From Candidatus Buchananbacteria bacterium CG10_big_fil_rev_8_21_14_0_10_33_19 (lineage in GTDB: Bacteria; Patescibacteriota; Patescibacteriia; 2-01-FULL-39-33), in contig PEZY01000012.1 in assembly GCA_002773855.1 (NCBI GenBank), positions 367,847-431,846 on the forward strand: a stretch of DNA of 64,000 nucleotides. Direction: 5' to 3'. The stretch's first letter is position 1. Each line of letters opens with the position of its first letter. Under the pieces are notes generated by a model. It was not told the DNA's origin and ran no database searches. It saw nothing but the letters and a program-made list of their open reading frames with translations. A program made the position numbers and the translations under genes. Of the stretch, positions 724 through 25,140 are shown piece after piece.

Positions 724-2904
724 TTATAAAGTTAAAGGTTCTCCCCTACTATAATCATTTTCAAAACCATTTTGAATTTTAATAACCTCTGATTCCCAAT
801 TATTACCATACAATTCTAGTAATACATCACTGGTGGCATAATTAATAACTGCTCCATCAGACACAATATAAATTCTAGGACTGTTATAAAATCTAATTAA
901 TTTACTATCTGGCTTCACGGTTATATGCTCTCCTTCTTCTAAAGCATCAAAATCCTCTTGAGATATAGTTTCTAAATTTTGATCAGCCCAAGTACCTGTA
1001 TGCCAAGTCCAATAAGTTACACTATTAGGATATAAATGTCTTTTGCCATCATCGGTAATATGATAAACGGCATCACTATCAGCGGTTTTAATTACTCGAC
1101 CACTAGCATAGGAATAAATCTTTACACCTAAAACCTGTGGGGCTGGAGCGGATCCTCCACCACCACCTCCGCCACCAGCACTAGCAACAATAATATTCCA
1201 AGTAGCCGTAGTTGGATTGGTACCTATATCTTGCCAATTACCAGCTAAATCCTGACCAATAACTTCTAAGGTGTGTGAACTAATAGATAAAGTAGTTAAA
1301 GTTATTGGTGTCGCAATAGCCGTCGCTCCACTCACGGCTCCACCGTCTAAGCGATATTTATAATTAAGAACATCAGTGCCAGCTACTGTAATACTAAAAC
1401 TATTATCAGTGGTTTCGGCGGCTGGTGTATTGGATAAAGTAGATGTTGGAGCAACAGTATCAATTACTATGTAGCGACTACCAAAATAAACATCATCTGC
1501 GCTCAAAGTAGTTTGATGATTTCCAGCCTGATCATAAATATCGCCAGTGATACCCGATATATACAATCTGTCTGAATTATAACCATTAATAATAGAATAC
1601 TCGCAGCTAGCCGTGGTAGCTGGTGCTGAGGTAATAGCCAAATTACAAGAACCAATGTCAAAACTAATAGTTGAAGTGGCAACTAATGAAACAGCTTCAG
1701 AAAATGTTACCGTAAAAATTGCCGAACCCACCCCATAACTACTATCCGCTGCCGGATCAGTTAATCTTACTGTTGAAATTAGCGGCAGAACACCATCAAT
1801 AATAATATCAGAATTATCATCAATGTTTTCGTCTCTAATCTTGTAATTTAATAATATATTAGTTGAAGCCACACTATAAATACTACCAGTAATACTACTC
1901 ACACTTAAATCGGCTGTAGAATCATTTGCTCCCACTACATAATTACAAGAACCAGTGGTTAATGGTGATGAAGTAGCTATTTGAAAAGCACAACTACCCG
2001 TAGCACTAGCATTGAGATTAATAGTAATATCACTACTAGAATAAACTGACTCGGAAAATGTTAAATGAATAGGTACAATATCACCAATTTTATAGCGACC
2101 ATCACTAGCTGTACTAGTAGCCACAATAAGTCTGGGACTATCAGTATTAATGTGAATGCCATTGGCTAAATTACTATTAATATAACCAAAGGTGTTGCCA
2201 GCTAAATCATATATATTACCAGTAATACTACTGACACTTAAATTACTAGCATCATCGTTTGCCCCCACTATATAATTACAAGAACCAGTAGTTGATGGTG
2301 ATGATGTAGCTATCTGAAAAGCACAACTAGCTGTGGAACTAGCATTAAGATTAATAGTAATTTCACCGCCAGCATAGACTGATTCTGAAAATTTAACATT
2401 AATAGGAATAATATCACCAGCATCATAATAATCATTTATAACTGTGGTAGTTATAGTGGCATTAGGATTGCTAGTATCTACAATAATATTTTTTAACGAC
2501 GACATATAAACAGCCGGGACAAACGATGTCATAGCATTGCCAGTCTCATCATATATATCACCAGTAAGATAACGCAAATCCAAATCATTAGAACTATCAC
2601 CATTACTAACCGTATAAATACACGATGCGGTGGAACTAGCCGATGATTGATCAATGGAAAAATAACAACGAGTCAGCAAGCCTGATGTTAAAACTATAGT
2701 AGAAGTTCCTACCGTATAAACTGGCTCAGAAAAATTAACTCTAATTGTTATCTCATCTCCAGCTATGTAATAACCATCCGGACTATCACTAGTAATTTGA
2801 GTGATAGTGGGAGCTACTGTATCAACAGCTTCAACCGATTGACCTAGACCAAAAATTGCTAAAATAGCAACCACCATTATAAGTGGGTTTCTTACCGCTT
2901 TCAT
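724..2904 (-). CDS. Secreted surface protein with tandem ~100-aa Ig-like repeats, poly-Gly linker and a conserved C-terminal module
   Basis: Signal peptide (MKAVRNPLIMVVAILAIFGLGQSVEA); two near-identical internal repeats (…INLNAS.TASCAFQIATSSP.TTGSCNY.VGAND…); GGGGGGGGS linker; C-terminal ~130 aa homologous to the C-terminus of the 1352-aa protein at 9691-13749. Confidence 0.6.
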   Translation of the reverse strand: MKAVRNPLIMVVAILAIFGLGQSVEAVDTVAPTITQITSDSPDGYYIAGDEITIRVNFSEPVYTVGTSTIVLTSGLLTRCYFSIDQSSASSTASCIYTVSNGDSSNDLDLRYLTGDIYDETGNAMTSFVPAVYMSSLKNIIVDTSNPNATITTTVINDYYDAGDIIPINVKFSESVYAGGEITINLNASSTASCAFQIATSSPSTTGSCNYIVGANDDASNLSVSSITGNIYDLAGNTFGYINSNLANGIHINTDSPRLIVATSTASDGRYKIGDIVPIHLTFSESVYSSSDITINLNASATGSCAFQIATSSPLTTGSCNYVVGANDSTADLSVSSITGSIYSVASTNILLNYKIRDENIDDNSDIIIDGVLPLISTVRLTDPAADSSYGVGSAIFTVTFSEAVSLVATSTISFDIGSCNLAITSAPATTASCEYSIINGYNSDRLYISGITGDIYDQAGNHQTTLSADDVYFGSRYIVIDTVAPTSTLSNTPAAETTDNSFSITVAGTDVLNYKYRLDGGAVSGATAIATPITLTTLSISSHTLEVIGQDLAGNWQDIGTNPTTATWNIIVASAGGGGGGGGSAPAPQVLGVKIYSYASGRVIKTADSDAVYHITDDGKRHLYPNSVTYWTWHTGTWADQNLETISQEDFDALEEGEHITVKPDSKLIRFYNSPRIYIVSDGAVINYATSDVLLELYGNNWESEVIKIQNGFENDYSRGEPLTL

Positions 2905-2913
2905 ACTTTAAGA

Positions 2914-4698
2914 CTAAATAATTATTAAAATAATCAAAAGACTAATAAACACCAAACTAGATATTATCATCTTAAGATTTTGTTTTTTAAATTGAATAAA
3001 TATATTAATCAAGAGCGTTGCAACAATCAAACCTAACATTATTTTATAAATAGTCGCTGAAATCGAGAATAACCAATTAACATTGCCAGATTTACTATCT
3101 TTAGCAAAAAAATACTGTTGGGTTAAAGAAGCTTTAACTGGTTTAATGCCATCCCATGATACGTCGGTTGTTACTGAATTGCCAGCGTAGTCGGTCGCTG
3201 TAACACTAGGCAAAACCACTGGATTAAATAACTGTTCATTTTCTTGATTAAATATAATAGTGCTGCCAGTCCATTTGGTTGGCAAGCTAATATCTGGCTG
3301 AAGATCTATTTTATAATTACCAAATGAAACACTAGCGTTTTTAGTATCACTATCTAAGAAAACTTCAGCTCTAACTATTTTTTGCTCTTTGTCGTTAGCC
3401 TCTAGGACAAATAGTTTACTGGCTTCAATATTAATAGCTGGTGGAATTTGATCCAATGACACCCTATAAACATCTGAAGACAACGTTTTTGAACCATTAC
3501 TAGCTTCAAATCTTAAATTATTTTCACCTTCACTCAAAGACAAGCTAAATTCAAAATTACCGTCTTTAGAATTAGTTAACTCTAAATATTTTACATCATT
3601 TAAATAGACATTTAGTGTCTTAGCCGATACAGCTAGAACACTAAAATAAGTGGGATTTTCATTAACCACTGAATCATTTTTAGGATAAGACAAGATCGGC
3701 ACAGACAAAGAAGATGCAATAATCTTTTCACCAAAAACTTTTTGACTGGAATCACTAACAACAGTATTTTCATTTGGTTCTCGTGTTACTATATTAGCTA
3801 CCGGAATATCATTAACAGACCCAAAAAACTGAGCTACTAGCGTCGTATCATAACCATTAAACTTACCACTTACCACTCCCACACCAATTTCAGTAAAATC
3901 TGGATCAATTATATTAGCATAATGAGTCTTACTCTGAACCCAAGCATTAACCACGTCAGCCGCATCAACAAAACCCATGGCTAAATTTTCACCAGCCGTG
4001 CTATAAGTATAATTATTTTTCCGTAACCAATAACCTAACCCCTTCTTTTTTGGACTAACATGAGCAAAATACTGTTCAGTTAACATATCCTGAGCTTTTT
4101 CATAAGCGCCTTTATTTAGAACATCATTTTTGATCAATAAGTTTAAACCCAAACTACTTCTAATTTCATTGGTTAAATTTATAATTTTCTCCGCTTGCTT
4201 TTTAGAAACATCTGGCGTCACCCAAGCACTTAACGGTAAACTAACTACAAATATTACAATTAATAGTTTAATAGCAATAGCCGATACTCCATAAGCAAAT
4301 AAACTATTGGTTTTTAAAATTTTTGGTGAAAACTGATTACCTGAATAAGAAAAAAATAAATCCTTCAAATAACCACCACCTCTAGGATTTTTACCTTGTT
4401 TAATAGCCTCACCATCTGGCACACCATCACCATCAGAGTCAGGATTATTAGGATCGGTTTGATAAATTTTTATTTCTTCGTAATCAGAAATACCATCACC
4501 ATCCGAGTCGGGGTTATTGGATTTAGTGCCATAAAGCTTTTCTTGATAATCACTTAGACCATCACCGTCGGTATCAGCCATTATTCGAATTCTGTCTGAT
4601 AATTCTTTTACTTTTAGTTCTAATTTTTTAGACTTTAAATCAATATCACTTTTAGGTGTGACAATTATTTTTTTTCTACTTTTAATAGTCTTTTTCAT
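2914..4698 (-). CDS. Membrane-anchored protein with thrombospondin type-3-like Ca-binding repeats and a CAP/SCP (PR-1, YkwD-like) domain
   Basis: Three D.DGDG..D repeats (DTDGDGLSDYQE, DSDGDGISDYEE, DSDGDGVPDGEA); CAP motifs (HYANIIDPDFTEIGVGVV, GENLAMGF); internal and C-terminal TM helices. Confidence 0.6.
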   Translation of the reverse strand: MKKTIKSRKKIIVTPKSDIDLKSKKLELKVKELSDRIRIMADTDGDGLSDYQEKLYGTKSNNPDSDGDGISDYEEIKIYQTDPNNPDSDGDGVPDGEAIKQGKNPRGGGYLKDLFFSYSGNQFSPKILKTNSLFAYGVSAIAIKLLIVIFVVSLPLSAWVTPDVSKKQAEKIINLTNEIRSSLGLNLLIKNDVLNKGAYEKAQDMLTEQYFAHVSPKKKGLGYWLRKNNYTYSTAGENLAMGFVDAADVVNAWVQSKTHYANIIDPDFTEIGVGVVSGKFNGYDTTLVAQFFGSVNDIPVANIVTREPNENTVVSDSSQKVFGEKIIASSLSVPILSYPKNDSVVNENPTYFSVLAVSAKTLNVYLNDVKYLELTNSKDGNFEFSLSLSEGENNLRFEASNGSKTLSSDVYRVSLDQIPPAINIEASKLFVLEANDKEQKIVRAEVFLDSDTKNASVSFGNYKIDLQPDISLPTKWTGSTIIFNQENEQLFNPVVLPSVTATDYAGNSVTTDVSWDGIKPVKASLTQQYFFAKDSKSGNVNWLFSISATIYKIMLGLIVATLLINIFIQFKKQNLKMIISSLVFISLLIILIII

Positions 4699-4847
4699 GA
4701 TTAGGCCTGTTGAGTAATCATTTTCGTAGCGAAATTTTCATATTTTGAGATAAATTTTTGGAAATTTAACCGAAATATGAAAATTATAGTAGCAAATTAT
4801 TGTTTAATAGACCCCTGTATTATCTCATAAATATTACTCCAAATCAA

Positions 4848-4890
4848 GAAAAAAATAAAAGCAATACTGTAGTTTAGTATTGCTTTTGAA
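4848..4890 (-). terminator. Hairpin terminator downstream of purF (A-tract/T-tract flanked, possibly bidirectional)
   Basis: aagcaatact-gtagttt-agtattgctt hairpin with flanking A and T runs. Confidence 0.55.
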
Positions 4891-6243
4891 TTAAATTGGA
4901 TAATCACCGGTCATACAAGCAAAACAATAATCATCTGGATTATCGACTAAGCTTTTCAAATCTTCAACTGATAAAAATTCCAAAGAATCAGCACCGCATT
5001 CTTGTCTAATTTCTTCTTTAGAATGATTGGCTGCTATTAATTCACTTTTATTAGGTGTGTCTATACCATAATAACATGGTGAAATTATCATTGGAGAAAC
5101 AATGCGTAAATTAATACTTTTAGCGCCAGCAAATCTAATTAAACCCACTAAACCACGCATAGTTGTTAATCTAACGATCGAATCATCCACTACCACCACA
5201 TCCTTACCTTCAACTAATCGACGAATAATGATAAATTTTTTGCGGACTGCCAAGTCTCTAAGATATTGAAATGGTAAAATAAATGTCCTACCAATATAAT
5301 GATGCCGAGCAATGGCCCTGACAGAGCTAATCCCCATTTCATTAGCATAGCCCTCTGCGTGATAAACTGCCGAATCAGGCACACCAACAACACAATTAGT
5401 ATTAGTTGGGCAAACTTGGCAAAGTTTTTTACCAGCTCGCAAATGAAAATCTACTACCGCTTCATCAAAAACCACACTACCAGGATGAGAATAATATATT
5501 TTTTCAAAAATACATTGTGCTTTTTTATGGTTAGTTGGACTAATATAAATAGAATTTTCGTCAAAAAAATATGACTTAGATTCATTTTTACTGACAATTA
5601 ATATCTCGCCTGGCTGAACACTTCTTTTAGTGTTAACGCCCAAGCTTTCAAATGAAACTGTTTCTGACGAAAAGTAAAGACTATCGCCAAATTCACCTAT
5701 CGATAAAGGGCGATTTCCCCATGGATCACGTATAGCAATAACTGTATCATCAAACAAAATTAACAGCGAATAACTGCCTCGTAAAAATTTAACCGAGTCA
5801 TAAATCCTATCAACCAAACTCTCAGCCAATGACTCACAAAATAATCGTAAAATTATTTCAGTATCTATTTTTGTTTTTAGTCTTTCAGGGTGTTTTAATT
5901 TAGTTATTAATTCTGAGTAATTAACCAAATTACCATTATGAGCAATGGCTACTTCCCGATTATTAAAAACTCCTAAAATCGGTTGGGCATTATCTGCCTT
6001 AGGATTGTCTTCAACTGTTGAATAGCGAATATGACCAATGGCACATTTACCATGAAGCTTATCCAAGGTATCTTGATCAAAAACTTCTTGAACAATACCC
6101 TTGGCCTTATGACAAAAAATATTTGAACCGTCACTAGAGGCTATGCCAGCATACTCTTTGGCTCGATGCTGGATAGCATGACCCATAACATAGCAGATTT
6201 CTGCTGCTTTACGACAATTAAAGGCACCGAAGACTCCACACAC
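4891..6243 (-). CDS. purF: Amidophosphoribosyltransferase (glutamine-PRPP amidotransferase)
   Basis: N-terminal MCGVFG (Ntn Cys), class-II GATase fold, PRTase motif VVVVDDSIVRLTT, C-terminal Cys cluster. Confidence 0.8.
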   Translation of the reverse strand: MCGVFGAFNCRKAAEICYVMGHAIQHRAKEYAGIASSDGSNIFCHKAKGIVQEVFDQDTLDKLHGKCAIGHIRYSTVEDNPKADNAQPILGVFNNREVAIAHNGNLVNYSELITKLKHPERLKTKIDTEIILRLFCESLAESLVDRIYDSVKFLRGSYSLLILFDDTVIAIRDPWGNRPLSIGEFGDSLYFSSETVSFESLGVNTKRSVQPGEILIVSKNESKSYFFDENSIYISPTNHKKAQCIFEKIYYSHPGSVVFDEAVVDFHLRAGKKLCQVCPTNTNCVVGVPDSAVYHAEGYANEMGISSVRAIARHHYIGRTFILPFQYLRDLAVRKKFIIIRRLVEGKDVVVVDDSIVRLTTMRGLVGLIRFAGAKSINLRIVSPMIISPCYYGIDTPNKSELIAANHSKEEIRQECGADSLEFLSVEDLKSLVDNPDDYCFACMTGDYPI

Positions 6244-6311
6244 ATCCTTCTCCTTTGTTGTTAAGGTACAAAAATAAAATTCGCTCCAACTAGTGGAACG
6301 AATTTATTATT

Positions 6312-6614
6312 TTAAATTTTGTTTATTTCTACTTCTACAAACTCTTGACGATGTCCGAATTTCTTAGCTTGTCTGGTTTTTGGCTTATACTTAACACCAG
6401 TTACTTTTCTAGCCTTGCCAAAAGCCAAAACTTTACCTTCAACCTTAGACTTAAGTAGAGGTGCTCCAAGATCCATTTTATCACCATCAACCAGTAATAA
6501 AGTATCAAATTCTACCTTATCACCAGTTTCTACCTTAAGCTTTTCAATTTTTATTTTATCTTTTTCTTTGACAACGTATTGTTTGCCACCAGTTTTAATA
6601 ACTGCAATTTTCAT
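6312..6614 (-). CDS. rplU: 50S ribosomal protein L21
   Basis: MKIAVIKTGGKQYVV… is a typical L21 N-terminus; about 100 aa; basic. Confidence 0.85.
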   Translation of the reverse strand: MKIAVIKTGGKQYVVKEKDKIKIEKLKVETGDKVEFDTLLLVDGDKMDLGAPLLKSKVEGKVLAFGKARKVTGVKYKPKTRQAKKFGHRQEFVEVEINKI

Positions 6615-6687
6615 AATGTTTATTACAAAAGTGATTTATACAACGATTACATATTACACTTTTTAGATTTATTTGTCAAATAATATC

Positions 6688-7173
6688 CTAAAGACTAATT
6701 TTAACAATATCCCCTATTCTGAGGCTATATTTATCCACAAAGCCTGAATTTACCTCTAAAACATAGTTAACAAAAGACTTTGGTCTATAAATTGGTAAAT
6801 TAAGATTATCCCGCTGAGGCTCTAAATTCCTCTCATAACCAATCACCATATCGTCTTTTATCCAAATAATATCAATGGGGATAATCATATTTTTCATCCA
6901 AAAATTTGGCAATATATAGTCATCATAAACAAATAACATACCATTATTTGATGGCATTTTTTTAACATAACCCAAGCCTAATTGCTGTTCTGATGGAGTT
7001 TTAGCTAATCTTAATTTTATTTGTTGACCGGCAATATCGATAGTTTGCAAATTTGCTAGTGCCTGTTTGTTTTTAACAATTATTGCCAACGATACAAACA
7101 AAAGAATAGTAACAACAAAAACTATACTTAGTAGTCTAAAATTAACTTTTATTTTTTTGGGTTGACTTTCCAT
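6688..7173 (-). CDS. DUF192 (COG1430) family protein
   Basis: N-terminal TM; GMLFVYDD…PIDIIWI…VLEVNSGF pattern of the DUF192 family. Confidence 0.55.
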   Translation of the reverse strand: MESQPKKIKVNFRLLSIVFVVTILLFVSLAIIVKNKQALANLQTIDIAGQQIKLRLAKTPSEQQLGLGYVKKMPSNNGMLFVYDDYILPNFWMKNMIIPIDIIWIKDDMVIGYERNLEPQRDNLNLPIYRPKSFVNYVLEVNSGFVDKYSLRIGDIVKISL

Positions 7174-8206
7174 AGATTACTAAAATAATTAAACACATAA
7201 AAACAACTAAAACCCCTAAGCTAAATAATTTTCCCAGACTATTGCTTAATATGCCAAGTAGACCAAAAGTAATTGCTATTAAATATAGTAGTAATACTGC
7301 CTCTCTTTGACCAAAACCCACATCTAATAATTGAAAATGTAAATGTTTTCTATCAGCATGAGAAAATGGCGATTCGCCTCTTAAGAATCTTCTAATAATG
7401 ACAATTAAAACGTCTAAAGCCGGAATACCAATCACCAATAGAGTGGTAGCAATTTTAGAACCAGAGATTATAGATAATACACCCAACATAAAACCCATAA
7501 AAATGCTGCCACCCTCACCTAAAAATATCTTAGCTGGATAAAAATTAAAAACCAAAAACCCAATTGAAGCCCCAAATAAAACTAGAGCCCAAACACTAGT
7601 AGCTGACATATAAACATCCCAACTTAAACTAAGGATAAAAATCATAAAAGCCGCCACACTAGTAATGCCAGTAACTAGTCCATCCAAACCATCCAATAGT
7701 TTAGTAGTATACATTAAGCCCATTAGCCAAATAAAGGAAACCAAAGTACCTAATATTGGTGTTAAATAAACAATAGCATTGGTAGGGCCGCCAATAGGAT
7801 TAGTGATATAAGTAATTTTAATACCAACTAATAAAACCACTGTCGCCGCTAAGAGTGGCCAAATTATTTGTTGCCATGGTTTTAAATTATATTTATCATC
7901 TAATGTTCCACCAATCATAATTAACAAACCACCAATAAAAACCGCTAATATAAAATTAGCGCCAACACCAGAAAAATCAGCTAAGTTAAATAATTTAAAA
8001 ATAAAAACCGAAATAAAAATGGCTAAAAAAATAGCCCAGCCACCTAGCAACGGTACGGGGTTTTTGTGGATTTTTCTATCAGCTGAGTTTGGTTTGTCTA
8101 ATATATTAAAATAATGAGAAATTTTAATAACTAGTGGGGTAACCAAAAATGATATTAATAAGCCAATAGATACAGCTAAAAAATAAGCATAATTTATATT
8201 TATCAT
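7142..8206 (-). CDS. MraY/WecA-family polyprenyl-phosphate N-acetylhexosamine-1-phosphate transferase (GT4)
   Basis: About 10 TM helices; DDKYNL, LDGLDGL and NxxNxxDGxDGL-like motifs of the MraY/WecA family; I cannot distinguish MraY from WecA from sequence alone. Confidence 0.6.
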   Translation of the reverse strand: MININYAYFLAVSIGLLISFLVTPLVIKISHYFNILDKPNSADRKIHKNPVPLLGGWAIFLAIFISVFIFKLFNLADFSGVGANFILAVFIGGLLIMIGGTLDDKYNLKPWQQIIWPLLAATVVLLVGIKITYITNPIGGPTNAIVYLTPILGTLVSFIWLMGLMYTTKLLDGLDGLVTGITSVAAFMIFILSLSWDVYMSATSVWALVLFGASIGFLVFNFYPAKIFLGEGGSIFMGFMLGVLSIISGSKIATTLLVIGIPALDVLIVIIRRFLRGESPFSHADRKHLHFQLLDVGFGQREAVLLLYLIAITFGLLGILSNSLGKLFSLGVLVVFMCLIILVIYGKSTQKNKS

Positions 8207-8234
8207 GAAATAATTATAGCAAAATAATTGATAT

Positions 8235-8262
8235 TAAAAAATCCCAGAAATTAAACTGGGAT
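8235..8262 (-). terminator. Terminator of small gene 8266-8520
   Basis: tcccag-aaattaaa-ctggga hairpin with U-tract on the minus strand. Confidence 0.6.
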
Positions 8263-8265
8263 AAA

Positions 8266-8520
8266 TTACCTAGTAACATCTAATAAGCCGCGGGAATTAT
8301 AGATACCTATAACCGGTTGAACTATTTCCCATTCTTGACGGCTCTTAGCTTTTTCTGAAGCAACCAGAGCTGCTTTAGATATGGTTACATTTACTCCCAG
8401 GTAATTTGATACTAATCCATTAGACTCTGCCTGTAACATCAAAGCTAGCCCCTGATGCGATCCTGAATGTGATAAACGGTAACTTTCACCAATAGTCGTT
8501 GGCAAAGCATGTCCAAGCAT
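8266..8520 (-). CDS. Small hypothetical protein (84 aa) forming its own transcription unit
   Basis: Consensus promoter TTGACA-17-TATGGT at 8556-8584 and GGAG RBS 8 nt before the internal ATG (MLGHALPTT…). The ORF-track start at 8565 lies inside the -10 box, so it is probably not used. A terminator follows. Sequence is GC-richer than its surroundings. Confidence 0.45.
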   Translation of the reverse strand: MLGHALPTTIGESYRLSHSGSHQGLALMLQAESNGLVSNYLGVNVTISKAALVASEKAKSRQEWEIVQPVIGIYNSRGLLDVTR

Positions 8521-8555
8521 TTTACTATCTCCAAGGTTAAAAGACCTAACACTAA

Positions 8556-8584
8556 ACCATAGCAAAAAATTTAGACCTTGTCAA
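8556..8584 (-). promoter_or_regulatory. Sigma70-like promoter (TTGACA-17-TATGGT) for small gene
   Basis: Exact -35 hexamer, 17-nt spacer, TATGGT -10. Confidence 0.55.
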
Positions 8585-8597
8585 TAATAATTTAAAA

Positions 8598-9680
8598 TTA
8601 AAATTTACCTTTTTTAATTTCTATTCGCAAATCACTCATCATCGAAAGATAAAACTCTAAATTATTTAAAGTCGCTAGTCGCATACCCAGTGGTTCATTG
8701 GTTTTAAATAATTGATATAAATAAGCTCGACTGTATTGTTTTAAATTAGTTTTATTAATTGAAGATTTATCATTTTTAAACTTAGCGTTAGCAATATTAA
8801 TAGTTTCATAAAAACCAGCACCAAAGCCTGATTTTTTTCTAATATACAACCTGCCGTGTCTCGCTTCTCGAGTCGGAATAACACAATCAAACATATCTAC
8901 TCCCCGCTTAACCGCTGCGACAATATTGTCTGGCGTGCCTACGCCCATTAAGTATCTGGGTTTATCTTCTGGCATTTGATTTACTAAATAATCTAACACC
9001 GAATACATTTCTTGATTACTTTCACCCACGGCCAAACCACCAATAGCATAACCATCAAAGTCCAACTTCACTAAGTCCTTTAAACTTCTTTCTCTTAAAT
9101 CTTGATGTAATCCGCCCTGAACAATACCAAACATTAATTGTTTAGAGTTGAGCGTTTTTTTATACTTCTTCGCTTCTTTGGCCCAAGCGGTAGTTAAATC
9201 AACCGCTTCTCTAATTTTTGCCTTAGAGTCTTTGGAACTAGGACATACATCTAAAATCATCGCAATGTCCGAACCAATAATTTTTTGGATTTCTAAAACT
9301 TTTTTCGGTGTTAAGGTGTGCCGACTACCATCAATATGTGAATTAAATTCTACACCATGTGGCATTATTTTTCTAATCTTAGACAGAGAGAAAACTTGAA
9401 AACCACCACTGTCAGTTAGAATTGGCCCAGACCAATTCATCATTTTATGTAGTCCACCTTGTTTTTTTAGAACATCTAAACCAGGCTGAAGATATAAATG
9501 ATAAGTATTCGAAAGTATAATCTGAGCACCTAGTGATTTAACCTCACCCGTAGTCAGATGTTTGACCGCTGCTTTGGTAGCGATTGGCATAAAAAATGGT
9601 GTCCCAATAAAACCATGAGCGGTTTTTAATTTACCAAGTCTAGCTTTAGTCTTTTTAGATTCTTTTAAGATTTCATACAT
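8598..9680 (-). CDS. tgt: Queuine tRNA-ribosyltransferase
   Basis: Conserved Tgt N-terminus (…GTPFFMPIATKAAVKHL…ILSNTYHL…TDSGGFQ) and zinc-site Cys/His at the C-terminus. Confidence 0.85.
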   Translation of the reverse strand: MYEILKESKKTKARLGKLKTAHGFIGTPFFMPIATKAAVKHLTTGEVKSLGAQIILSNTYHLYLQPGLDVLKKQGGLHKMMNWSGPILTDSGGFQVFSLSKIRKIMPHGVEFNSHIDGSRHTLTPKKVLEIQKIIGSDIAMILDVCPSSKDSKAKIREAVDLTTAWAKEAKKYKKTLNSKQLMFGIVQGGLHQDLRERSLKDLVKLDFDGYAIGGLAVGESNQEMYSVLDYLVNQMPEDKPRYLMGVGTPDNIVAAVKRGVDMFDCVIPTREARHGRLYIRKKSGFGAGFYETINIANAKFKNDKSSINKTNLKQYSRAYLYQLFKTNEPLGMRLATLNNLEFYLSMMSDLRIEIKKGKF

Positions 9681-9690
9681 AATTTAACAA

Positions 9691-12600
9691 CTATTCCCAA
9701 GCTTCTAGCGGTTCACTGGTACTATACTCGACTGATTCAGGCACATCCTTAACGATATCAATATCTTTGAAGCCATTACTACTAAAGACATTGGAAGTTA
9801 CTAATCTTTTCGCATTATTTTCAATATACCAGATATCAGAAGAGTTAACATACTGAATAAGTGAACCATCGGGATACATTAAGGTATCGGCACTAATAGC
9901 ACAACTATCATCTCGAGTATAATCCGATTCAAACGAATTTTGAATTATAACTAATCTTTCCATCCATTTATCACCAAAGCCAAAAGTCGCTGGACAAAGC
10001 ACATCACCAGCTTTCACTACATAAATAATATTACTACCCTTGAACTGAATAAGCTTACTGCCAGGCCTAACTGTAACATTCTTAGCCACTGGGATAGCAT
10101 CAAATTCCGATTGTGTTACCACCTCGACTAAATGATCAGCCCAAGTGCCAGTTCGCCATGACCAAAAAGTTGGTGAGTTAACAAACAACCGTCTTTTACC
10201 ATCTATAGCTACATGATAAACTGCTGGATCATTAGCCACTTTAATTAACCTACCAGTATAAAATTTCTGTCTAATTAATTCTGTTTTAATAATAACGTTA
10301 TTAACAGTATCATCAGTATCAGTAGATGGAGCTCCAGCGCCTGCTGCTCCGCCACCAGCAGTAGCAGTACAACTAGTAGTTTCATTGGGCTTACCTTCTG
10401 GGATATTACAATTGTTAGTATCACTACATGACCTAGATTTAGAACTAGTAACACAGGCTGACCAAGAAGTGCACGTCCAATTAGGCGTACAAGTCACGCT
10501 ACAACCCTGAACCAAAGTTGGTTTGTCTAAAATAGTACCACAAGCGTTTGCATCAGTACAAGTTCTAGATTGAGAGCTACTGGTACAAGTTGACCAAGCA
10601 CTACAAGACCAATTTTCGATACAGGCTGGAGCAATGTCATACACTCTTTCCTTAACCACTTCAGCATTACCAGAAACATCACTAGCATAGAATCTTAAAG
10701 TTTTAGAAGTTGAAATAGCTAAAGCTGAATTATAAACAGCATTTGGTGTACAACCAACACCTAGACAATAATAAATAGTAGCTGGTTCGCTAGCCGACAA
10801 AGTTACTGATATAGCTGAGCTATAAGTACCACTAGCTTTAGAAGCAGTGGTCACTGGCTTAATCGTATCGGCAGCAGCGGAAGCGGTAGAAAAATAGCCA
10901 AAAACGGCCGCTGTTCTAGTTAAATCATCAATCACAAATTCACTGTATTTAGTAATATTAAAATTATCTAAGTATTTTCGGGCTGTTGGATAACCAGGGC
11001 TACCATAGTAAGCTGGATAAGCATTATCTAAAACCGCAATGTAATAACTCTTATATGGCAATGCATTAGCCGGACCATAAACACTAAACCCGGGTATTGG
11101 CTGAGCAATACCATCAAATTCAGACACTTTATTTAATGGATCAACTACCGGATTATCCCCAATGCCAGTAATAAACACTTTAGACAGTGGATTAGCTCCA
11201 AGTTGAAAATCTATATTCTGCTTAGCCCTATCTAAATAATAACTATTACCAGTTAGTTCATGGGCTAAAATGTAAATAAATGAATACCGAGTACTCATTG
11301 ACAATGTACCAAAGCCAACATTAATAAAATCTTTTTCGGCCACCTTATAATTCCACTGGTCTTCATCTTTCTTAAATTTATCCATTAGCTGACTAAAAGC
11401 TGTCATATAGACCGCTTTTCTCTCAGAATTAGCTCCAGCAATATTATAATAATCCCAACCTCGTCTTAGATTAGAAGCACTATAATAATAATCCGTTTTA
11501 GTCCAACTATTTAATTCATTGGTTGGAACCAAGTTAGTAAAAACATCCTCGTATTTTTGTTCGCCAGTTAAAGCATAAAGTTCTATAGCCGCCCAAGCTC
11601 TAGAATCTCTATTATCATTACTCCAATAACAACCAGAACTAACATCGGTTATACCTAAAGCCGGATTACCCTTAGGATTACAATAGGCCTCTTGTTCTGT
11701 TTTTGTAGTATATGGTGGCGGGTTTTGTTCTGGATGGGCTTCTAAGCATTGCCACGCCAGTAGCGCCTTGTCCCTATACCGCTGAGCATCCGTTGGGAAA
11801 AATGGTTGCATAATCCTAGCGGCTTTAGCTAATATGGCGGCGGCAAAACCAGTATCTTCTGTAGATTTAGTAATCACCCAGTGTTTTCTGGTGTCCAAAT
11901 CAGGCATTTTATCAGACCAAGTTTCAAAAGCCACTTTATTAAAAGTACAACCATTACTACTTACCATTTTAGCTATCCAATCTAACTCCCATTTAGACTC
12001 ATCCAATATATCTGGGACTCCATTATGACTCTCTGGAATATTTAATTGATTATCGGAAAAATGGGTTGGTACTATTTCATACATAGTGAAGTAATTATCC
12101 ACTGCTTCAGCCGCTGTTCTAATATATTTATTATAATCAGCCGCATCAAACCAACCACCAGTAAAGTCAGCTTGAGCACCAATTGGCTCGTTGGCATATA
12201 AATCCGGAGATTTATCTTTAATAGAATTATGATAATAACCAGCCGTTGGTTGAGCCGCTCCTCTGCTCCAAATACCGGCATATTGCGAGGTTAAGGCCAT
12301 GCCACTGCGCTGATAATACAGCGCTCTGGCTGTAGTGTAAAAAACATCATTATATATATTATCTCTAATATCAAAATCATAACTTCTACCAATACCATCT
12401 ATCTGTATATAATACGAACCGGGGGTTTCAAAATTTGTAAAATCCAAATACCACACATCCTCCCCAGTGAAAGGCCGAACGCTGTCATTAATATAAAAAT
12501 TATCTGATTCTGATGATTTTATTAAGGCTCCAGTCAAAACTACTTGACCAGTCGTTTTATTTTTAATCTTTGCTATTAGACCAGCGCTTAAAGTCATTTG

Positions 12601-13749
12601 TCCAGCGTCACCTAAGTAGTTACCCACATAAACCCGTTTTGGTGATTTTGGCAGATAACCAACTTGATTTACTTTAATACTAGAACTAATGTCATTATTA
12701 AAATCAAAAGAAAAATTAACACCTCCAACTTTAGGTAGATTACCTATTATATCCTTGACTTGTATAGAAAGGCTATAATTAGCATTGGAAGAAATTGGTG
12801 ATGCTAAATCTAAATAAATATAATCTTTTACCACAGGAGAAAATGAACTTCCGCTAAAATCAGTCACAAACCTCCTTATGCCCACTGAAGAAACATTTAT
12901 TTTACTATTGTCACTGGAATTCACCAGAGTATAATTGGCGACATTTCTAGCTGATGCGAAATTTAATTTTTCATCAATAGTTAACATTAGATTTTTACTG
13001 TCTAAAACCTCTATAGCCTCTACAACCAAACCTTGGGTGTCCTCTAGAGTAATATCATCAATATAAAAACTTTTTGGAGTTTGACTAGCAGGAACAGAAA
13101 AATAAATATTTCTAAAAGCTCCACCAAAATTACCAACAAAAGCACTGCCAGGTATTACCACTTGTCGATAAGTCCCATCTATGACGCCACCACTCACGTA
13201 GGGTAATATATTTAAATTTTGAGAGGCATCATTACCACCAGAATACTGAATCACTATATCTAATGTATTTGCATAAGTACCGGATGTTGTTCTAATCCAA
13301 AATTTAATAGAATCAACCTCACTAAAATTTAAAACGCCCTGGTTGCCATAACCCACGTCTAACCTTGATTTTGTATGATTACCATCAGGCATATCCATTT
13401 TTAAAGCCTTATTGCCTGTCTTAGATAATAATGGATCACTGATAACTGTCAAAGCGTAACCAGTTGTCAACGCTTCAAAATCCTTATCTTCTTCAAAAAT
13501 TACTTTTTTAACCTCATTTACACAAGAAGCCGAACAACCGTCATAGCTATCCACATTACCATCATCACATTGCTCTGCTAAATCAACTACACCATCACCA
13601 CAAGTAGTAGCCGCAATTGTGAAATCACCTAAAACCATCGATTTTGACTTTATTTTAAATAAAACAAAAATCAAACCCATTATACAAATAATTAATATAA
13701 ACAAAGTCAAGAAATATTTTTTTGATGGTCCTAATTTGAATGTTAGCAT
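9691..13749 (-). CDS. Giant membrane-anchored surface protein with a glycoside hydrolase family 9-like catalytic domain, Cys-rich repeats and a shared C-terminal module
   Basis: N-terminal signal anchor; CGDGVVD…CDDGN Cys-rich repeat; GGWFDAADYNKY resembles the GH9 GGWYDAGD signature, with Gly to Ala in the DAGD box; Fn3/CHB_HEX_C-like segment; two C-rich repeats; G/A linker; C-terminal ~130 aa homologous to the C-terminus of ORF 724-2904. Confidence 0.55.
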   Translation of the reverse strand: MLTFKLGPSKKYFLTLFILIICIMGLIFVLFKIKSKSMVLGDFTIAATTCGDGVVDLAEQCDDGNVDSYDGCSASCVNEVKKVIFEEDKDFEALTTGYALTVISDPLLSKTGNKALKMDMPDGNHTKSRLDVGYGNQGVLNFSEVDSIKFWIRTTSGTYANTLDIVIQYSGGNDASQNLNILPYVSGGVIDGTYRQVVIPGSAFVGNFGGAFRNIYFSVPASQTPKSFYIDDITLEDTQGLVVEAIEVLDSKNLMLTIDEKLNFASARNVANYTLVNSSDNSKINVSSVGIRRFVTDFSGSSFSPVVKDYIYLDLASPISSNANYSLSIQVKDIIGNLPKVGGVNFSFDFNNDISSSIKVNQVGYLPKSPKRVYVGNYLGDAGQMTLSAGLIAKIKNKTTGQVVLTGALIKSSESDNFYINDSVRPFTGEDVWYLDFTNFETPGSYYIQIDGIGRSYDFDIRDNIYNDVFYTTARALYYQRSGMALTSQYAGIWSRGAAQPTAGYYHNSIKDKSPDLYANEPIGAQADFTGGWFDAADYNKYIRTAAEAVDNYFTMYEIVPTHFSDNQLNIPESHNGVPDILDESKWELDWIAKMVSSNGCTFNKVAFETWSDKMPDLDTRKHWVITKSTEDTGFAAAILAKAARIMQPFFPTDAQRYRDKALLAWQCLEAHPEQNPPPYTTKTEQEAYCNPKGNPALGITDVSSGCYWSNDNRDSRAWAAIELYALTGEQKYEDVFTNLVPTNELNSWTKTDYYYSASNLRRGWDYYNIAGANSERKAVYMTAFSQLMDKFKKDEDQWNYKVAEKDFINVGFGTLSMSTRYSFIYILAHELTGNSYYLDRAKQNIDFQLGANPLSKVFITGIGDNPVVDPLNKVSEFDGIAQPIPGFSVYGPANALPYKSYYIAVLDNAYPAYYGSPGYPTARKYLDNFNITKYSEFVIDDLTRTAAVFGYFSTASAAADTIKPVTTASKASGTYSSAISVTLSASEPATIYYCLGVGCTPNAVYNSALAISTSKTLRFYASDVSGNAEVVKERVYDIAPACIENWSCSAWSTCTSSSQSRTCTDANACGTILDKPTLVQGCSVTCTPNWTCTSWSACVTSSKSRSCSDTNNCNIPEGKPNETTSCTATAGGGAAGAGAPSTDTDDTVNNVIIKTELIRQKFYTGRLIKVANDPAVYHVAIDGKRRLFVNSPTFWSWRTGTWADHLVEVVTQSEFDAIPVAKNVTVRPGSKLIQFKGSNIIYVVKAGDVLCPATFGFGDKWMERLVIIQNSFESDYTRDDSCAISADTLMYPDGSLIQYVNSSDIWYIENNAKRLVTSNVFSSNGFKDIDIVKDVPESVEYSTSEPLEAWE

Positions 13750-13767: not shown

Positions 13768-15792
13768 TTACTGAACTATACCCTTGATTTTACCAAGAAT
13801 TGGATCATCAAAGCTAGTGGTAATAGCTTTAACATCCTTGGTAATTAATGTCCCTGTATTAGAATCTTTAGCCGATAAACTAATACCGGATAACAGTATT
13901 AATACTCGACCACGATCATTATTTGTTGGTTTAATATTAATATTAAATGATGCGATTACATCTTTAGCTGATCTTTTAAGGTTAGAAATATTCCAAATCA
14001 CTTCATTAGTAGCCGCATTATACGATAGATCGCCAATATCATGATTTTCCCGATTAGACCATGATACATTATTTGGCAATTTAGATCTAACCTGAACATT
14101 TTCTACGTCATGAAGGCTATTAGATAACTGTAAATAAATATTATAAGTTGACTCTTCACCAACTCTGGGCTCAGTTGGCCCAAGCCCTAGTGGGACGTTT
14201 TCTTCATCATAATACCTAGCCACTGCTTCAATGGCCAAATCAGAGTTAACTGAGTTAATAATTGATTTGGTAATAACAGAGGACTCTCCGGTTAACTGAC
14301 CTTTTTGATTAGCCTTAGCTTCAATATAACTTTCAACACTAAATTTACCAATTTTAGAATCACCCACAACCGAAGCATCACTAACTCTAATTTGCCACGA
14401 AATATCACCCTCTTCGTTAGCACCTAATTTTAGAAGTTTAGGCACATTTCGACCAATCCAAATAATAGAATTTTTATCAACAGTGCCATTGTTTTCATCT
14501 TTTAAGGTTGACCAATCAAGTATTTCTGAATTCAAAGTGGCTTTAATTTGAATATTTTCTAAACTTTCCTCACCTGTATTTTTGTAATGCAATGTGTACA
14601 CCAATAGATCACCCAAACCAATCGACTGATCTTCTGCTGAGCCGTTAGTAATTAATTGCAAACTTAGCTGATCTTTTATAACATTAGTTATCAAAGTCTC
14701 TTCATTTTGTGGGTAATAGTCATTATTGTAGTTCAATTGCATTCTAGCCACAAAATCCCTGTTACCACCAAATTCAGCTGTCGAATAGTTACCCTTAATT
14801 TTAATCTCCCCTTTTTCTCCAGCTTTTAACTCTTTTATATCCCAAATATCATTTGTTTCTTTGCTAGCTGCTGGTTCCGATGAACTAAACACAAAAGATT
14901 CTGAATAGTCCACTACTATTTGAATATCAGAAAAAACTTCTTCCGATAAATTTTCATACTTTAAAATATATTCCAAATCTTGATTGGCTAGTGCCTTATC
15001 TGGACCTTCAATATCTAAACTTAAAACTGATGAGGAAACAATTACATCAACAATAGTCTCTTGTTTAAAATTAGCATTTAAATTGGCTGGCTTAAAATTC
15101 AAAACTCCTCTAAAAGTTTGAGTGGAATTTAAAGCAGCAATTGTCTTACCTTTTAGTTCTATGGTTTTACTTTCACCAATGTTTAAAACGCTAAAATTCC
15201 ATTTATTGTTTTTATCACCACTAGCTTTTGGCAATGAATCAACATATTCAAAATTATCCGGATAAAAAAGCTCTAAATCTAAATTATAGAGGTTAACCTT
15301 TTCTTTATTAGTAATAGTAATTGTGTATAGTCCCTCTTGTCCAGACACAATAGTAATTGGCGTGTCTATTTTTAAACTTATTTTTTCATTGGTAAAATTA
15401 TTAGTTTCCAGTTTAGAAAAAACAAAAAATCCAGCCAAAGCCACTATTAAAAATACAGAAAAAACCCCAATCAATGAATACAAAATAGTTTTCCAAAGTG
15501 GTCGCTCGTTCTTTTCTAATTTAGTTAAATCTGGTATTGCTCCATCTTTATCAGTATAAACTTCAGTTAACTTTCTCTGTATTTCCACGTCACTAGCCGA
15601 ACTACTGCTAAATGTTTCCACAATCTTTCTTTTAGGCTTATTTTTTTTAGTAATCAAACCCGCTAAGTCATCTTGCATAGTATTTACAGATTTCTTTTTT
15701 TTGACATTAGATTTACTGATCTGTGCTTTTGTTTTTGATAATGACTTTACTTCTTCATCAAAATTTTCAGCTGGATAGTTTTGAACAGGCAT
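13768..15792 (-). CDS. Membrane-anchored extracellular repeat protein (hypothetical)
   Basis: Basic cytoplasmic N-terminus, single TM (LWKTILYSLIGVFSVFLIVALAGFFVF), long beta-rich ectodomain. Confidence 0.4.
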   Translation of the reverse strand: MPVQNYPAENFDEEVKSLSKTKAQISKSNVKKKKSVNTMQDDLAGLITKKNKPKRKIVETFSSSSASDVEIQRKLTEVYTDKDGAIPDLTKLEKNERPLWKTILYSLIGVFSVFLIVALAGFFVFSKLETNNFTNEKISLKIDTPITIVSGQEGLYTITITNKEKVNLYNLDLELFYPDNFEYVDSLPKASGDKNNKWNFSVLNIGESKTIELKGKTIAALNSTQTFRGVLNFKPANLNANFKQETIVDVIVSSSVLSLDIEGPDKALANQDLEYILKYENLSEEVFSDIQIVVDYSESFVFSSSEPAASKETNDIWDIKELKAGEKGEIKIKGNYSTAEFGGNRDFVARMQLNYNNDYYPQNEETLITNVIKDQLSLQLITNGSAEDQSIGLGDLLVYTLHYKNTGEESLENIQIKATLNSEILDWSTLKDENNGTVDKNSIIWIGRNVPKLLKLGANEEGDISWQIRVSDASVVGDSKIGKFSVESYIEAKANQKGQLTGESSVITKSIINSVNSDLAIEAVARYYDEENVPLGLGPTEPRVGEESTYNIYLQLSNSLHDVENVQVRSKLPNNVSWSNRENHDIGDLSYNAATNEVIWNISNLKRSAKDVIASFNINIKPTNNDRGRVLILLSGISLSAKDSNTGTLITKDVKAITTSFDDPILGKIKGIVQ

Positions 15793-18616: not shown

Positions 18617-18727
18617 TTAAAATTTATCTTTCAAAATGAATAAATTTTTATCTGTTTATGAGTATTATTATAACATAAAATAACTAAGTAAACCAAACTA
18701 AATTATCATAACTGGGGATAAAAAAAT

Positions 18728-18750
18728 AGACAGATCAGTGTGATCTGTCT
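18728..18750 (-). terminator. Terminator after glycosyltransferase cluster
   Basis: agacagatca-gtg-tgatctgtct perfect hairpin, A-tract upstream on the plus strand. Confidence 0.6.
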
Positions 18751-18768
18751 AAAGGTTAGTTTAAACGC

Positions 18769-19884: not shown

Positions 19885-19885
19885 G

Positions 19886-22079: not shown

Positions 22080-22156
22080 AGTAATTATCTTAACAAAAAT
22101 AGTCCTTTTTTAGCAAATAAAAAAGTAGGCAATCTACCTACTAATTATTCGATATC

Positions 22157-24587: not shown

Positions 24588-25140
24588 TGTCTAGATAAAT
24601 CTATAAGCCGAATTCTGTTCCTGATGGGTCTGTCTCCAAATAGTCTTTTGTTTATAAGTTTTCACAATTTTGAAATAAATTTTTTAAACAATTTTTAAAG
24701 TTTAGTGGAGCTAAGCTGAAAAAATTTTTATAAAATTTAGACAAAATTTGGAAATTTTAACAAATATGCTATTTGGTGACAGACCCATACAAAGAGATGA
24801 CAATCTATCTGGATTAACTATTACTAGTTAATTCTAGCCCCCTACTATATTTGGGGTTGCACTAAGTAGAGTTTACCACGAACTGCCGGTCACCGACAGC
24901 TGAGTCACGTAGCTTTAGACTAAGGGGATATCCCGTTCTTATTCTAAAACATCATGACACTTTTCACCTTTCATTTGCCGAAGCAAACTAGTATTGTCTC
25001 TGTGGCACTGGTCCTAACTATACCTCGCGATATAGCTGGTGGGCGTTACCCACTACCATGACTTTAATCATAGTGATTAAAGAGTGTTCGGACTTTCCTC
25101 TCCGATTAAAACCGGAGTAGTCATCCAACTTATCTAGACA
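24588..25140 (-). ncRNA. rnpB: RNase P RNA (bacterial type A) with a long AT-rich insertion
   Basis: Ordered conserved elements on the minus strand: P1 (5' gucuagauaag / 3' cuuaucuagac), P3 hairpin, P4 5' strand GAGGAAAGUCCGAAC, GGUAACGCC, AGUGCCACAGAGA, GGUGAAA, GGUAAACUC, and P4 3' strand ACAGAAUUCGGCUUAU with compensatory GG/CC to AA/UU change versus E. coli. A consensus promoter puts the TSS at P1. Confidence 0.8.

What the first reader, a model, noticed from the sequence alone, without database searches (positions are those of the whole stretch)
724..13749. Two giant surface proteins share a previously unrecognised C-terminal ~130-aa module behind poly-Gly/Ala linkers; one carries a GH9-like domain with DAAD in place of DAGD
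ORF 724-2904 and ORF 9691-13749 end with homologous domains (…YH(I/V)..DGKR.L(Y/F).NS.T(Y/F)W(T/S)W.TGTWAD…ET.SQ(E/S)(D/E)FDA…(V/I)(K/R)PGSKLI(R/Q)F…N.(F/S)E.DY(S/T)R). Each follows a G/A-rich linker (GGGGGGGGSAPAP and TATAGGGAAGAGAP). That position and architecture fit a cell-surface anchoring or sorting module. The larger protein contains GGWFDAADYNKY, close to the GH9 endoglucanase signature GGWYDAGD but with Gly to Ala. It also has Cys-rich CxDGN repeats and an Fn3-like module, which suggests a surface glycan-degrading or glycan-binding function. The smaller protein has two nearly identical ~200-bp internal repeats at about 1870-2060 and 2215-2405, a substrate for copy-number variation.
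Basis: partly seen in the sequence, partly recalled or inferred. Interest (0 to 1): 0.55.

Follow-up and report, generated by a model that had tools for sequence, protein, structure and literature searches.

The report
Unnamed wall-binding-like repeat module, Patescibacteria
Two exported proteins of a candidate-phyla-radiation bacterium, one of them a family-9 glycoside hydrolase, share a repeat module that no domain library searched here names; it occurs in thousands of Patescibacteria surface proteins and probably holds them on the cell wall.

Summary
The shared module is real: 45% identity over 125 aa, E 3e-32. No Pfam, NCBIfam or PDB sequence matches it. It is neither rare nor a C-terminal sorting signal.

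An exhaustive profile search finds 3,634 cluster representatives. Every hit that carries an organism name is from Patescibacteria. In 264 carriers examined, the module lies just after the signal peptide in 209, at the C-terminus in 41 and internally in 14.

It consists of tandem ~55-60-aa units (three strands, helix, strand, helix). The usual form has three units, R1-R2-R3 (179 of 264). ORF2 has all three; ORF1 has only R1-R2. AlphaFold2 models are confident (pLDDT 94). Their best structural neighbours are weak but consistent: EccB repeats and phage-lysin wall-binding domains (PlyCB, LysIME-EF1, Lys170). Partner domains are diverse exo-enzymes.

My best reading is a non-covalent cell-wall retention module. 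This is inferred, not shown.

ORF2 is a true GH9 with a CelD_N domain (E 1e-46). DAAD is a subfamily trait (22 of 120 homologue clusters), and both catalytic Asp and the catalytic Glu are kept.

The ORF1 DNA repeats are only 78% identical. They are diverged Ig-like domain copies, not near-identical repeats.

The parts
724..2904 (-). ORF1, 726 aa: signal peptide, four ~111-aa Ig-like repeats, a ~105-aa domain, a poly-Gly linker, then module units R1-R2
   Evidence: There is a single N-terminal hydrophobic segment. The only Pfam hit is a weak Big_12 match (21 bits, below the 27-bit cut-off).
2827..2904 (-). ORF1 signal peptide (aa 1-26, ...GQSVEA|VD)
   Evidence: Sequence; hydropathy. The cleavage site is inferred.
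1498..2823 (-). ORF1: four Ig-like domain repeats. Copies 2 and 3 correspond to the DNA repeat 1867-2118 / 2200-2451, which is 78% identical.
1138..1176 (-). ORF1 linker GGGGGGGGSAPAP (aa 577-589)
739..1116 (-). ORF1 module: R1 (aa 597-657) and R2 (aa 663-722), with no R3
   Evidence: AlphaFold2 model pLDDT 93.6, pTM 0.80.
9691..13749 (-). ORF2, 1352 aa: N-terminal membrane anchor, DUF4215, unassigned beta-rich region, CelD_N, GH9, CHB_HEX_C_1, Cys-rich repeats, linker, module R1-R2-R3
13654..13722 (-). ORF2 N-terminal hydrophobic helix (aa ~10-32). It is complete only if translation starts at the ATG at 13749.
   Evidence: Metagenome gene callers start at Met24 (P0002).
13522..13605 (-). DUF4215 / myxo_disulf_rpt Cys-rich repeat (aa 49-76)
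12388..12687 (-). CelD_N Ig-like domain (aa 355-454)
   Evidence: E 2.8e-15
10927..12354 (-). GH9 catalytic domain (aa 466-941). DAAD at 12136-12147, PLNK in place of PHHR at 11128-11139, catalytic Glu937 at 10939-10941.
10651..10836 (-). CHB_HEX_C_1 domain (aa 972-1033)
   Evidence: E 2.1e-9
10369..10632 (-). Two Cys-rich ~43-aa repeats (C..NW.C..WS.C...S.SR.C.D.N.C), with no Pfam hit
10327..10368 (-). ORF2 linker TATAGGGAAGAGAP (aa 1128-1141)
9715..10260 (-). ORF2 module: R1 (aa 1164-1221), R2 (aa 1227-1281), R3 (aa 1291-1345)
   Evidence: (pLDDT 94.2, pTM 0.86)

Best explanation
Both ORFs encode exported cell-envelope proteins of a Patescibacteria (CPR) bacterium. They share a lineage-typical domain that no library searched here models. 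It is a tandem array of ~55-60-aa units, each with three strands, a helix, a strand and a helix: R1-R2 in ORF1 and R1-R2-R3 in ORF2.

The most likely role is a non-covalent cell-wall binding module. It would bind peptidoglycan or a wall-associated polysaccharide and so keep secreted enzymes, adhesins and S-layer-like proteins on the surface of a cell with no outer membrane. This is analogous in use to SLH, CWB2, LysM or phage-lysin wall-binding domains.

ORF2 would then be a GH9 beta-glycanase tethered at both ends: a membrane helix at the N-terminus and the wall-binding module at the C-terminus. Its catalytic residues are intact. ORF1 would be a secreted Ig-like-repeat protein, structural or adhesive, held on the wall by its C-terminal R1-R2.

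Shown here: the homology, the family size, the repeat anatomy, the confident predicted fold, the variable position and the partner domains. Inferred: wall binding, the ligand, and whether the wall is the cell's own.
For: - Pair homology: E 3e-32.
- Family size: 3,634 cluster representatives at E<=1e-3 and 1,858 at E<=1e-10. A second search found 1,177 clusters at 90% identity with E<=1e-5.
- Taxonomy: every hit that carries an organism name is from Patescibacteria, Parcubacteria, Buchananbacteria, Falkowbacteria, Kuenenbacteria or WWE3, or is labelled only 'bacterium'. One Buchananbacteria MAG has at least four loci.
- No library match: no Pfam model covers the module in 85 carriers, nor at E<=10 on the isolated module. 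NCBIfam and PDB sequence searches were also negative.
- Partner domains are extracellular and unrelated to one another: Peptidase_S8, alkaline phosphatase, GH9, CARDB, PKD, fn3, TSP3, cupredoxin, beta-helix.
- Position is variable (N-terminal 209, C-terminal 41, internal 14), and R1-R2-R3 is the dominant form at 179 of 264.
- The units are homologous to one another by profile comparison: R1-R3 93% probability, E 3e-7; R1-R2 E 9e-5.
- AlphaFold2 models: pLDDT 94.2 / pTM 0.86 and pLDDT 93.6 / pTM 0.80, with the same order of secondary-structure elements.
- Foldseek: the top 10 PDB hits are all EccB proteins.
- Literature: EccB1 repeats are reported as PlyCB-like (PMC4769845). PlyCB and the LysIME-EF1 C-terminal domain are wall-binding components (PMC7098653).
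- A homologous set of about 20 cluster representatives of 1,130-1,290 aa carries the module at the N-terminus. The four family members whose composition was computed are acidic, nearly Cys-free and about 50% T/S/A/G/N, and four members scanned have no Pfam hit. This is S-layer-like composition with an N-terminal anchor.
- Window context includes MurJ, an MraY/WecA-type transferase and a cluster of three GT4 genes plus Bac_transf and DUF4012, so wall polymers are made.
Confidence: 0.55

Rival explanations
1. The module is a host-adhesion domain. It binds the cell wall or surface glycan of the partner organism on which the episymbiotic CPR cell lives, and so delivers enzymes such as the GH9 to the host surface.
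For: The fold neighbours are the same: phage-lysin domains that recognise foreign walls. The family is confined to a lineage thought to be largely episymbiotic. Partner domains include hydrolases such as S8 proteases and glycosidases.
Against: The module is also attached to cupredoxins, alkaline phosphatase and S-layer-like giants, which fit self-retention better. One genome carries many copies on different proteins. ORF2 also has a membrane anchor, so it stays on the producer cell.
Confidence: 0.2
2. The module is a protein-protein assembly or docking module. It would mediate oligomerisation (PlyCB forms rings; EccB repeats are structural) or docking onto an S-layer or pilus, rather than glycan binding.
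For: The top structural neighbour, EccB, is a scaffold of a secretion machine with no proven peptidoglycan binding. PlyCB and the LysIME-EF1 wall-binding domain act as oligomeric rings.
Against: Conserved positions are rich in exposed-type aromatic and polar residues (W, Y, F, N, Q), as is typical of glycan binders. The module is fused to many unrelated enzymes, as retention modules are.
Confidence: 0.15
3. The module is a substrate-targeting carbohydrate-binding module for the GH9 and other glycosidases.
For: It is C-terminal in ORF2 and in the glycosidase-like proteins P0004 and P0005.
Against: Most carriers are not glycosidases: proteases, phosphatase, cupredoxins, or proteins with no catalytic domain. 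None of 120 GH9 homologue clusters carries it.
Confidence: 0.07
4. The module is a C-terminal sorting or secretion signal, comparable to LPXTG, PEP-CTERM or the T9SS C-terminal domain.
For: It is C-terminal behind flexible linkers in the two window proteins.
Against: It is N-terminal in 79% of carriers, internal in some and duplicated in others. It is a well-folded ~125-185-aa globular repeat. There is no C-terminal hydrophobic segment or sorting motif.
Confidence: 0.02

Closest known systems
PlyCB and enterococcal phage endolysin wall-binding domains (LysIME-EF1, Lys170)
   Different: No detectable sequence similarity. Here the units are covalently tandem (two or three per chain), whereas the phage domains assemble as rings of separate subunits. 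The proteins here are cellular and exported by the Sec pathway, not phage lysins.
EccB repeat domains of mycobacterial type VII (ESX) secretion systems
   Different: No match to any Pfam family, including the EccB family, was returned for the module. There is no central domain, no ESX context and a different lineage. The Foldseek E-values are not significant.
SLH domain triplets of S-layer and exo-proteins in monoderm bacteria
   Same: An analogy in use only: three tandem ~55-aa units placed at the N- or C-terminus of S-layer-like proteins and assorted exo-enzymes. The SLH properties cited are from my own knowledge.
   Different: No SLH Pfam hit. The predicted fold is mixed strand and helix, whereas SLH is, from my own knowledge, a helical bundle. 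The ligand is unknown.
GH9 glycoside hydrolases with an N-terminal CelD_N Ig-like domain (PDB 3X17 endoglucanase, BoGH9A xyloglucanase, C. thermocellum CelD)
   Same: PF00759 E 1.4e-46 and PF02927 E 2.8e-15. PDB 3X17 matches at E 1.5e-61. Both catalytic Asp and the catalytic Glu are conserved.
   Different: DAAD replaces DAGD, a trait shared with 22 of 120 homologue clusters. PLNK stands where most homologues have PHHR. The combination with a membrane anchor, DUF4215, CHB_HEX_C, Cys repeats and the CPR module is unique among the proteins examined.

Membership tests
Glycoside hydrolase family 9 (ORF2 aa 466-941) | Pfam PF00759 match above the gathering score | tested here: met
   160.2 bits against a 27.7-bit cut-off, profile positions 1-435 of 444. 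PDB 3X17 matches at E 1.5e-61.
Glycoside hydrolase family 9 (ORF2 aa 466-941) | Two catalytic Asp in the D-A-G-D motif | tested here: met
   D535 and D538 are present and invariant in 61 of 61 aligned homologues. The intervening Gly is Ala, as in 13 of 61 aligned sequences and 22 of 120 clusters.
Glycoside hydrolase family 9 (ORF2 aa 466-941) | Catalytic acid Glu near the C-terminus | tested here: met
   E937 aligns with Glu in 59 of 61 homologues, and D928 with Asp in 52 of 61.
Glycoside hydrolase family 9 (ORF2 aa 466-941) | PROSITE GH9 signature-1 His-x-Arg (P-H-H-R). The signature is recalled from my own knowledge. | tested here: not met
   ORF2 has PLNK at aa 871-874. Its nearest relatives have PH[NSC]K, and many DAGD homologues also lack the His. 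This position is variable in this clade and is not a universal requirement.
Glycoside hydrolase family 9 (ORF2 aa 466-941) | Hydrolysis of beta-1,4-glycans | not testable with these tools
   Needs an enzyme assay.
PlyCB-like / EccB-repeat fold (module units) | Significant 3-D similarity of one unit to PlyCB, phage wall-binding domains or EccB repeats | tested here: inconclusive
PlyCB-like / EccB-repeat fold (module units) | Sequence or profile similarity to those families | tested here: not met
   No Pfam, NCBIfam or PDB sequence hit.
PlyCB-like / EccB-repeat fold (module units) | Binding to cell wall material | not testable with these tools
   Needs a binding assay.
Known wall-anchoring domains (SLH, LysM, CW_binding_1/2, SH3b, PG_binding, GW) | Pfam match in the module region | tested here: not met
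   None in the two ORFs at E<=0.1, none in the isolated modules at E<=10, and none covering the module in 85 carriers.
C-terminal sorting signals (LPXTG/sortase, PEP-CTERM, T9SS C-terminal domain) | Obligate C-terminal position, with a motif plus hydrophobic tail or a recognised C-terminal-domain profile | tested here: not met
   The module is N-terminal in 209 of 264 carriers. There is no C-terminal hydrophobic segment and no Por_Secre_tail or similar hit.
DUF4215 / myxo_disulf_rpt (ORF2 aa 48-79) | Profile match above the cut-off | tested here: met
   TIGR02232: 37.9 bits against a 20.8-bit cut-off. PF13948: 27.3 against 27. One copy only.
Big_12 bacterial Ig-like domain (ORF1 repeats) | Pfam match above the gathering score | tested here: not met
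   21 bits against a 27-bit cut-off. The Ig-like nature is inferred from this weak hit and the repeat pattern.

The most novel reading that the evidence does not exclude
The R1-R2-R3 module is the Patescibacteria counterpart of the SLH triplet. It would be a lineage-specific wall-anchoring domain, not modelled in the libraries searched here, that defines the non-covalently attached surface proteome of CPR bacteria. That proteome would include a family of ~1,150-1,290-aa, Pfam-less proteins (acidic and Cys-poor in the four members computed) that would be their S-layer proteins.
Probability: 0.35. Interest if true: 0.65.

Novelty: new variant of a known kind. Interest (0 to 1): 0.45.

Why it matters
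CPR/Patescibacteria make up a large share of bacterial diversity, and most live attached to other cells. How their surface proteins are displayed is largely unknown, and most of those proteins are annotated as 'hypothetical'. A single profile for this module would label thousands of protein clusters as extracytoplasmic and surface-retained. It would nominate candidate S-layer proteins. It would also supply a concrete, expressible ~130-185-aa domain for testing what wall polymer CPR cells, or their hosts, expose. By itself the GH9 is an ordinary member of its family. Its interest is that a glycanase without named CPR relatives has been joined to CPR-specific anchoring parts.

Tried and rejected
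- The word-index homologue search with the two-sequence profile returned only one hit. That suggested a rare module, but the exhaustive HMM search overturned it.
- The PDB sequence search gave only 3lat_A at E 0.81, which is not significant.
- A PHROGs search gave only weak hits to families of unknown function.
With the three-sequence alignment it reached only close relatives.
- Literature searches for a description of this domain in Patescibacteria found nothing specific.
- Pseudo-enzyme reading of the GH9 because of DAAD: rejected. Both Asp and the Glu are conserved and DAAD is a clade trait. The loss of the signature-1 His is noted but is common in this clade.
- Sorting-signal reading: rejected on the position data.
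- Hyper-variable repeat reading: rejected on 78% identity and an invariant protein across at least 24 contigs.
Full report
**What is in the sequence**

The interval holds two minus-strand ORFs, 724-2904 (ORF1, 726 aa) and 9691-13749 (ORF2, 1352 aa). Housekeeping genes lie between them: an amidophosphoribosyltransferase-like gene, rplU, a Glycos_transf_4 (MraY/WecA-type) transferase and tgt.

The window has about 33% G+C and nearly all genes are on one strand. Identical copies of both proteins occur on 20 or more metagenome contigs of up to 438 kb. Close relatives of the shared module lie in Candidatus Buchananbacteria and other Patescibacteria MAGs. The organism is therefore a CPR bacterium.

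**The shared module is real**

BLASTP aligns ORF1 aa 598-722 with ORF2 aa 1162-1281 at 45% identity, E 3e-32. A tblastn search and unit-level HMM searches of all six reading frames find no further copy in the 64 kb.

**It is not named in the libraries searched, but it is far from rare**

- Pfam and NCBIfam give nothing on the module, even at E<=10 on the isolated segments.
- A profile search of PDB sequences gives nothing significant.
- A word-index search found only one relative.
- An exhaustive HMM search of 1.84 billion cluster representatives found 3,634 hits at E<=1e-3 and 1,858 at E<=1e-10.
- A second word-index search with a broader profile found 1,177 clusters at E<=1e-5.
- Every hit that carries an organism name is 'hypothetical protein' from Patescibacteria, Parcubacteria, Buchananbacteria, Falkowbacteria, Kuenenbacteria or WWE3, or is labelled only 'bacterium'.
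- A Pfam scan of 85 full-length carriers never covers the module.

**Anatomy**

AlphaFold2 on ORF2 aa 1160-1352 with a 119-sequence alignment gives pLDDT 94.2 and pTM 0.86. The model shows three tandem units, each with three strands, a helix, a strand and a helix. ORF1 aa 597-726 gives pLDDT 93.6 and pTM 0.80, with two such units in the same order.

Profile-profile comparison shows that the units are homologous to one another: R1-R3 93% probability, E 3e-7; R1-R2 E 9e-5; R2-R3 E 1e-3. Among 264 carriers, 179 are R1-R2-R3, 67 are R1-R2 and 8 are (R1-R2)x2. ORF2 has the full triplet and ORF1 a truncated doublet.

**Position and partner domains**

The module begins within the first 70 residues, right after a signal peptide, in 209 of 264 carriers. 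It is C-terminal in 41 and internal in 14. This sample is biased toward short proteins.

Partner domains are extracellular and mutually unrelated. They include TSP3 repeats, subtilases, CARDB, PKD, fn3, alkaline phosphatase, Laminin_G_3, beta-helix and cupredoxin, plus GH9 only once, in ORF2 itself. This is the behaviour of a mobile targeting or retention module, not of a C-terminal sorting signal.

**Fold neighbours**

- Foldseek's top ten PDB hits are all EccB1, EccB3 or EccB5, but none reaches E<=1e-3.
- In the viral library the best hit is an uncharacterised Rhodococcus phage protein (E 1.1e-5). Non-significant single-unit matches to phage lysozyme, CHAP and amidase proteins follow.

**Supporting context**

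About 20 cluster representatives of 1,130-1,290 aa carry the module at the N-terminus and share homologous bodies beyond it. The four family members whose composition was computed are acidic (pI 4.8-5.8), almost Cys-free and about 50% T/S/A/G/N. Four members scanned have no Pfam hit. That composition, with an N-terminal anchor, is what S-layer proteins of monoderm bacteria look like. This comparison is my inference.

The window also encodes MurJ, an MraY/WecA-type transferase, and a cluster of three GT4 glycosyltransferases plus a Bac_transf sugar transferase next to a DUF4012 protein. The cell therefore makes wall polymers that could serve as ligands.

**Most likely mechanism**

The module most likely binds a wall polymer non-covalently and retains exported proteins on the cell (confidence about 0.55). 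ORF1 has a cleavable-looking signal peptide and no other hydrophobic segment. ORF2 has one N-terminal transmembrane helix, which is complete only with the ATG at 13749; metagenome gene callers start at Met24 instead.

The rivals are adhesion to a host cell wall (0.2), a protein-protein docking or oligomerisation module (0.15), a substrate-targeting carbohydrate-binding module (0.07) and a sorting signal (0.02).

**The GH9 domain**

ORF2 aa 355-941 is an unambiguous CelD_N plus GH9 pair: E 2.8e-15 and E 1.4e-46 in Pfam, and PDB 3X17 at E 1.5e-61, aligning TGGWHDAGDYGKY with TGGWFDAADYNKY.

Among 120 homologue clusters, DAAD occurs in 22, including the five closest at 43-55% identity. One of those is named Kiritimatiellales, and none is named as CPR. 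D535 and D538 are invariant in the 61-sequence alignment and E937 is conserved in 59 of 61. The Gly-to-Ala change is a clade trait and not a sign of inactivation.

A less expected difference is PLNK where most homologues have PHHR. The nearest relatives have PH[NSC]K, and many DAGD homologues also lack the His. None of the 120 GH9 homologues carries the module. ORF2 looks like a GH9 core combined with CPR-typical envelope parts. Its substrate is unknown.

- The 'CxDGN repeats' are a single DUF4215 / myxo_disulf_rpt unit.
- The 'Fn3-like' module is CHB_HEX_C_1.
- The ORF1 DNA repeats lie at 1867-2118 and 2200-2451. They are 78% identical overall and 89% over the best 100 nt, and the longest exact run is 18 nt.
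- They are copies 2 and 3 of four ~111-aa Ig-like domains.
- The exact ORF1 protein recurs on at least 24 contigs.
- An orthologue with 55% identity has three repeats instead of four, so repeat number changes between species. Nothing here shows it changing within a population.

**Verdict**

The lasting result is a large Patescibacteria domain family without a Pfam or NCBIfam model. It has a confident predicted fold of tandem units that weakly resemble PlyCB and EccB repeats. It is a new variant of a known kind, namely non-covalent surface-retention repeats. Interest is moderate (0.45).

Noticed in passing
window 10369-10632 (ORF2 aa 1040-1127): Two ~43-aa Cys-rich repeats (C..NW.C..WS.C...S.SR.C.D.N.C...KP) lie between CHB_HEX_C_1 and the linker. 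The W-x-x-WS-x-C pattern is reminiscent of thrombospondin type-1 repeats (from my own knowledge). No Pfam hit even at E<=10.
   Followed up: partly
window 12700-13512 (ORF2 aa 80-350): About 270 aa between DUF4215 and CelD_N have no Pfam match. From the sequence they look like a beta-sandwich, carbohydrate-binding-like domain followed by an Ig-like domain.
   Followed up: partly
window 13654-13749: Metagenome gene callers start ORF2 at Met24 (P0002, 1329 aa), which cuts the only transmembrane helix in half. The ATG at 13749, 18 nt after the upstream stop codon, gives a complete helix.
   Followed up: partly
proteins P0008, P0033, P0077, P0082, P0083, P0106, P0115, P0150 and others (not in the window): A homologous family of 1,130-1,290-aa proteins with the module at the N-terminus. 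The four members whose composition was computed are acidic, nearly Cys-free and rich in T/S/A/G/N, and four members scanned have no Pfam hit. These are candidate Patescibacteria S-layer proteins.
   Followed up: partly
window 15818-23560: A DUF4012 protein (932 aa) is followed by three GT4 glycosyltransferases and a Bac_transf sugar transferase. This is a surface or wall polysaccharide synthesis cluster directly adjacent to the ORF2 and DUF11 surface-protein genes. MurJ lies at 30849-32552.
   Followed up: partly
window 2914-4698 and 13768-15792: The neighbours of the two ORFs are also envelope proteins. One has TSP3 repeats, a CAP/SCP domain and Ig-like parts, with a C-terminal hydrophobic tail. 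The other is a DUF11-repeat protein with an N-terminal transmembrane segment.
   Followed up: no
window 11128-11139 (ORF2 aa 871-874): The GH9 'PHHR' motif is PLNK here. The four nearest relatives keep the first His (PH[NSC]K), so the His-to-Leu change is specific to this protein among the close homologues.
   Followed up: partly
L005, L009, L010, L012, L015, L016: Several genome records that carry close relatives of the module are titled 'uncultured Gammaproteobacteria bacterium' (TPA assemblies). These may be mislabelled CPR bins; I did not check.
   Followed up: no
window 24757-25136 and 59159-59229: The only Rfam matches at gathering score are bacterial RNase P class A RNA and a single tRNA.
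   Followed up: no
window 8266-8565: A 99-aa ORF (called as 84 or 99 aa in metagenome annotations) lies between the transferase gene and tgt and has no Pfam hit.
   Followed up: no
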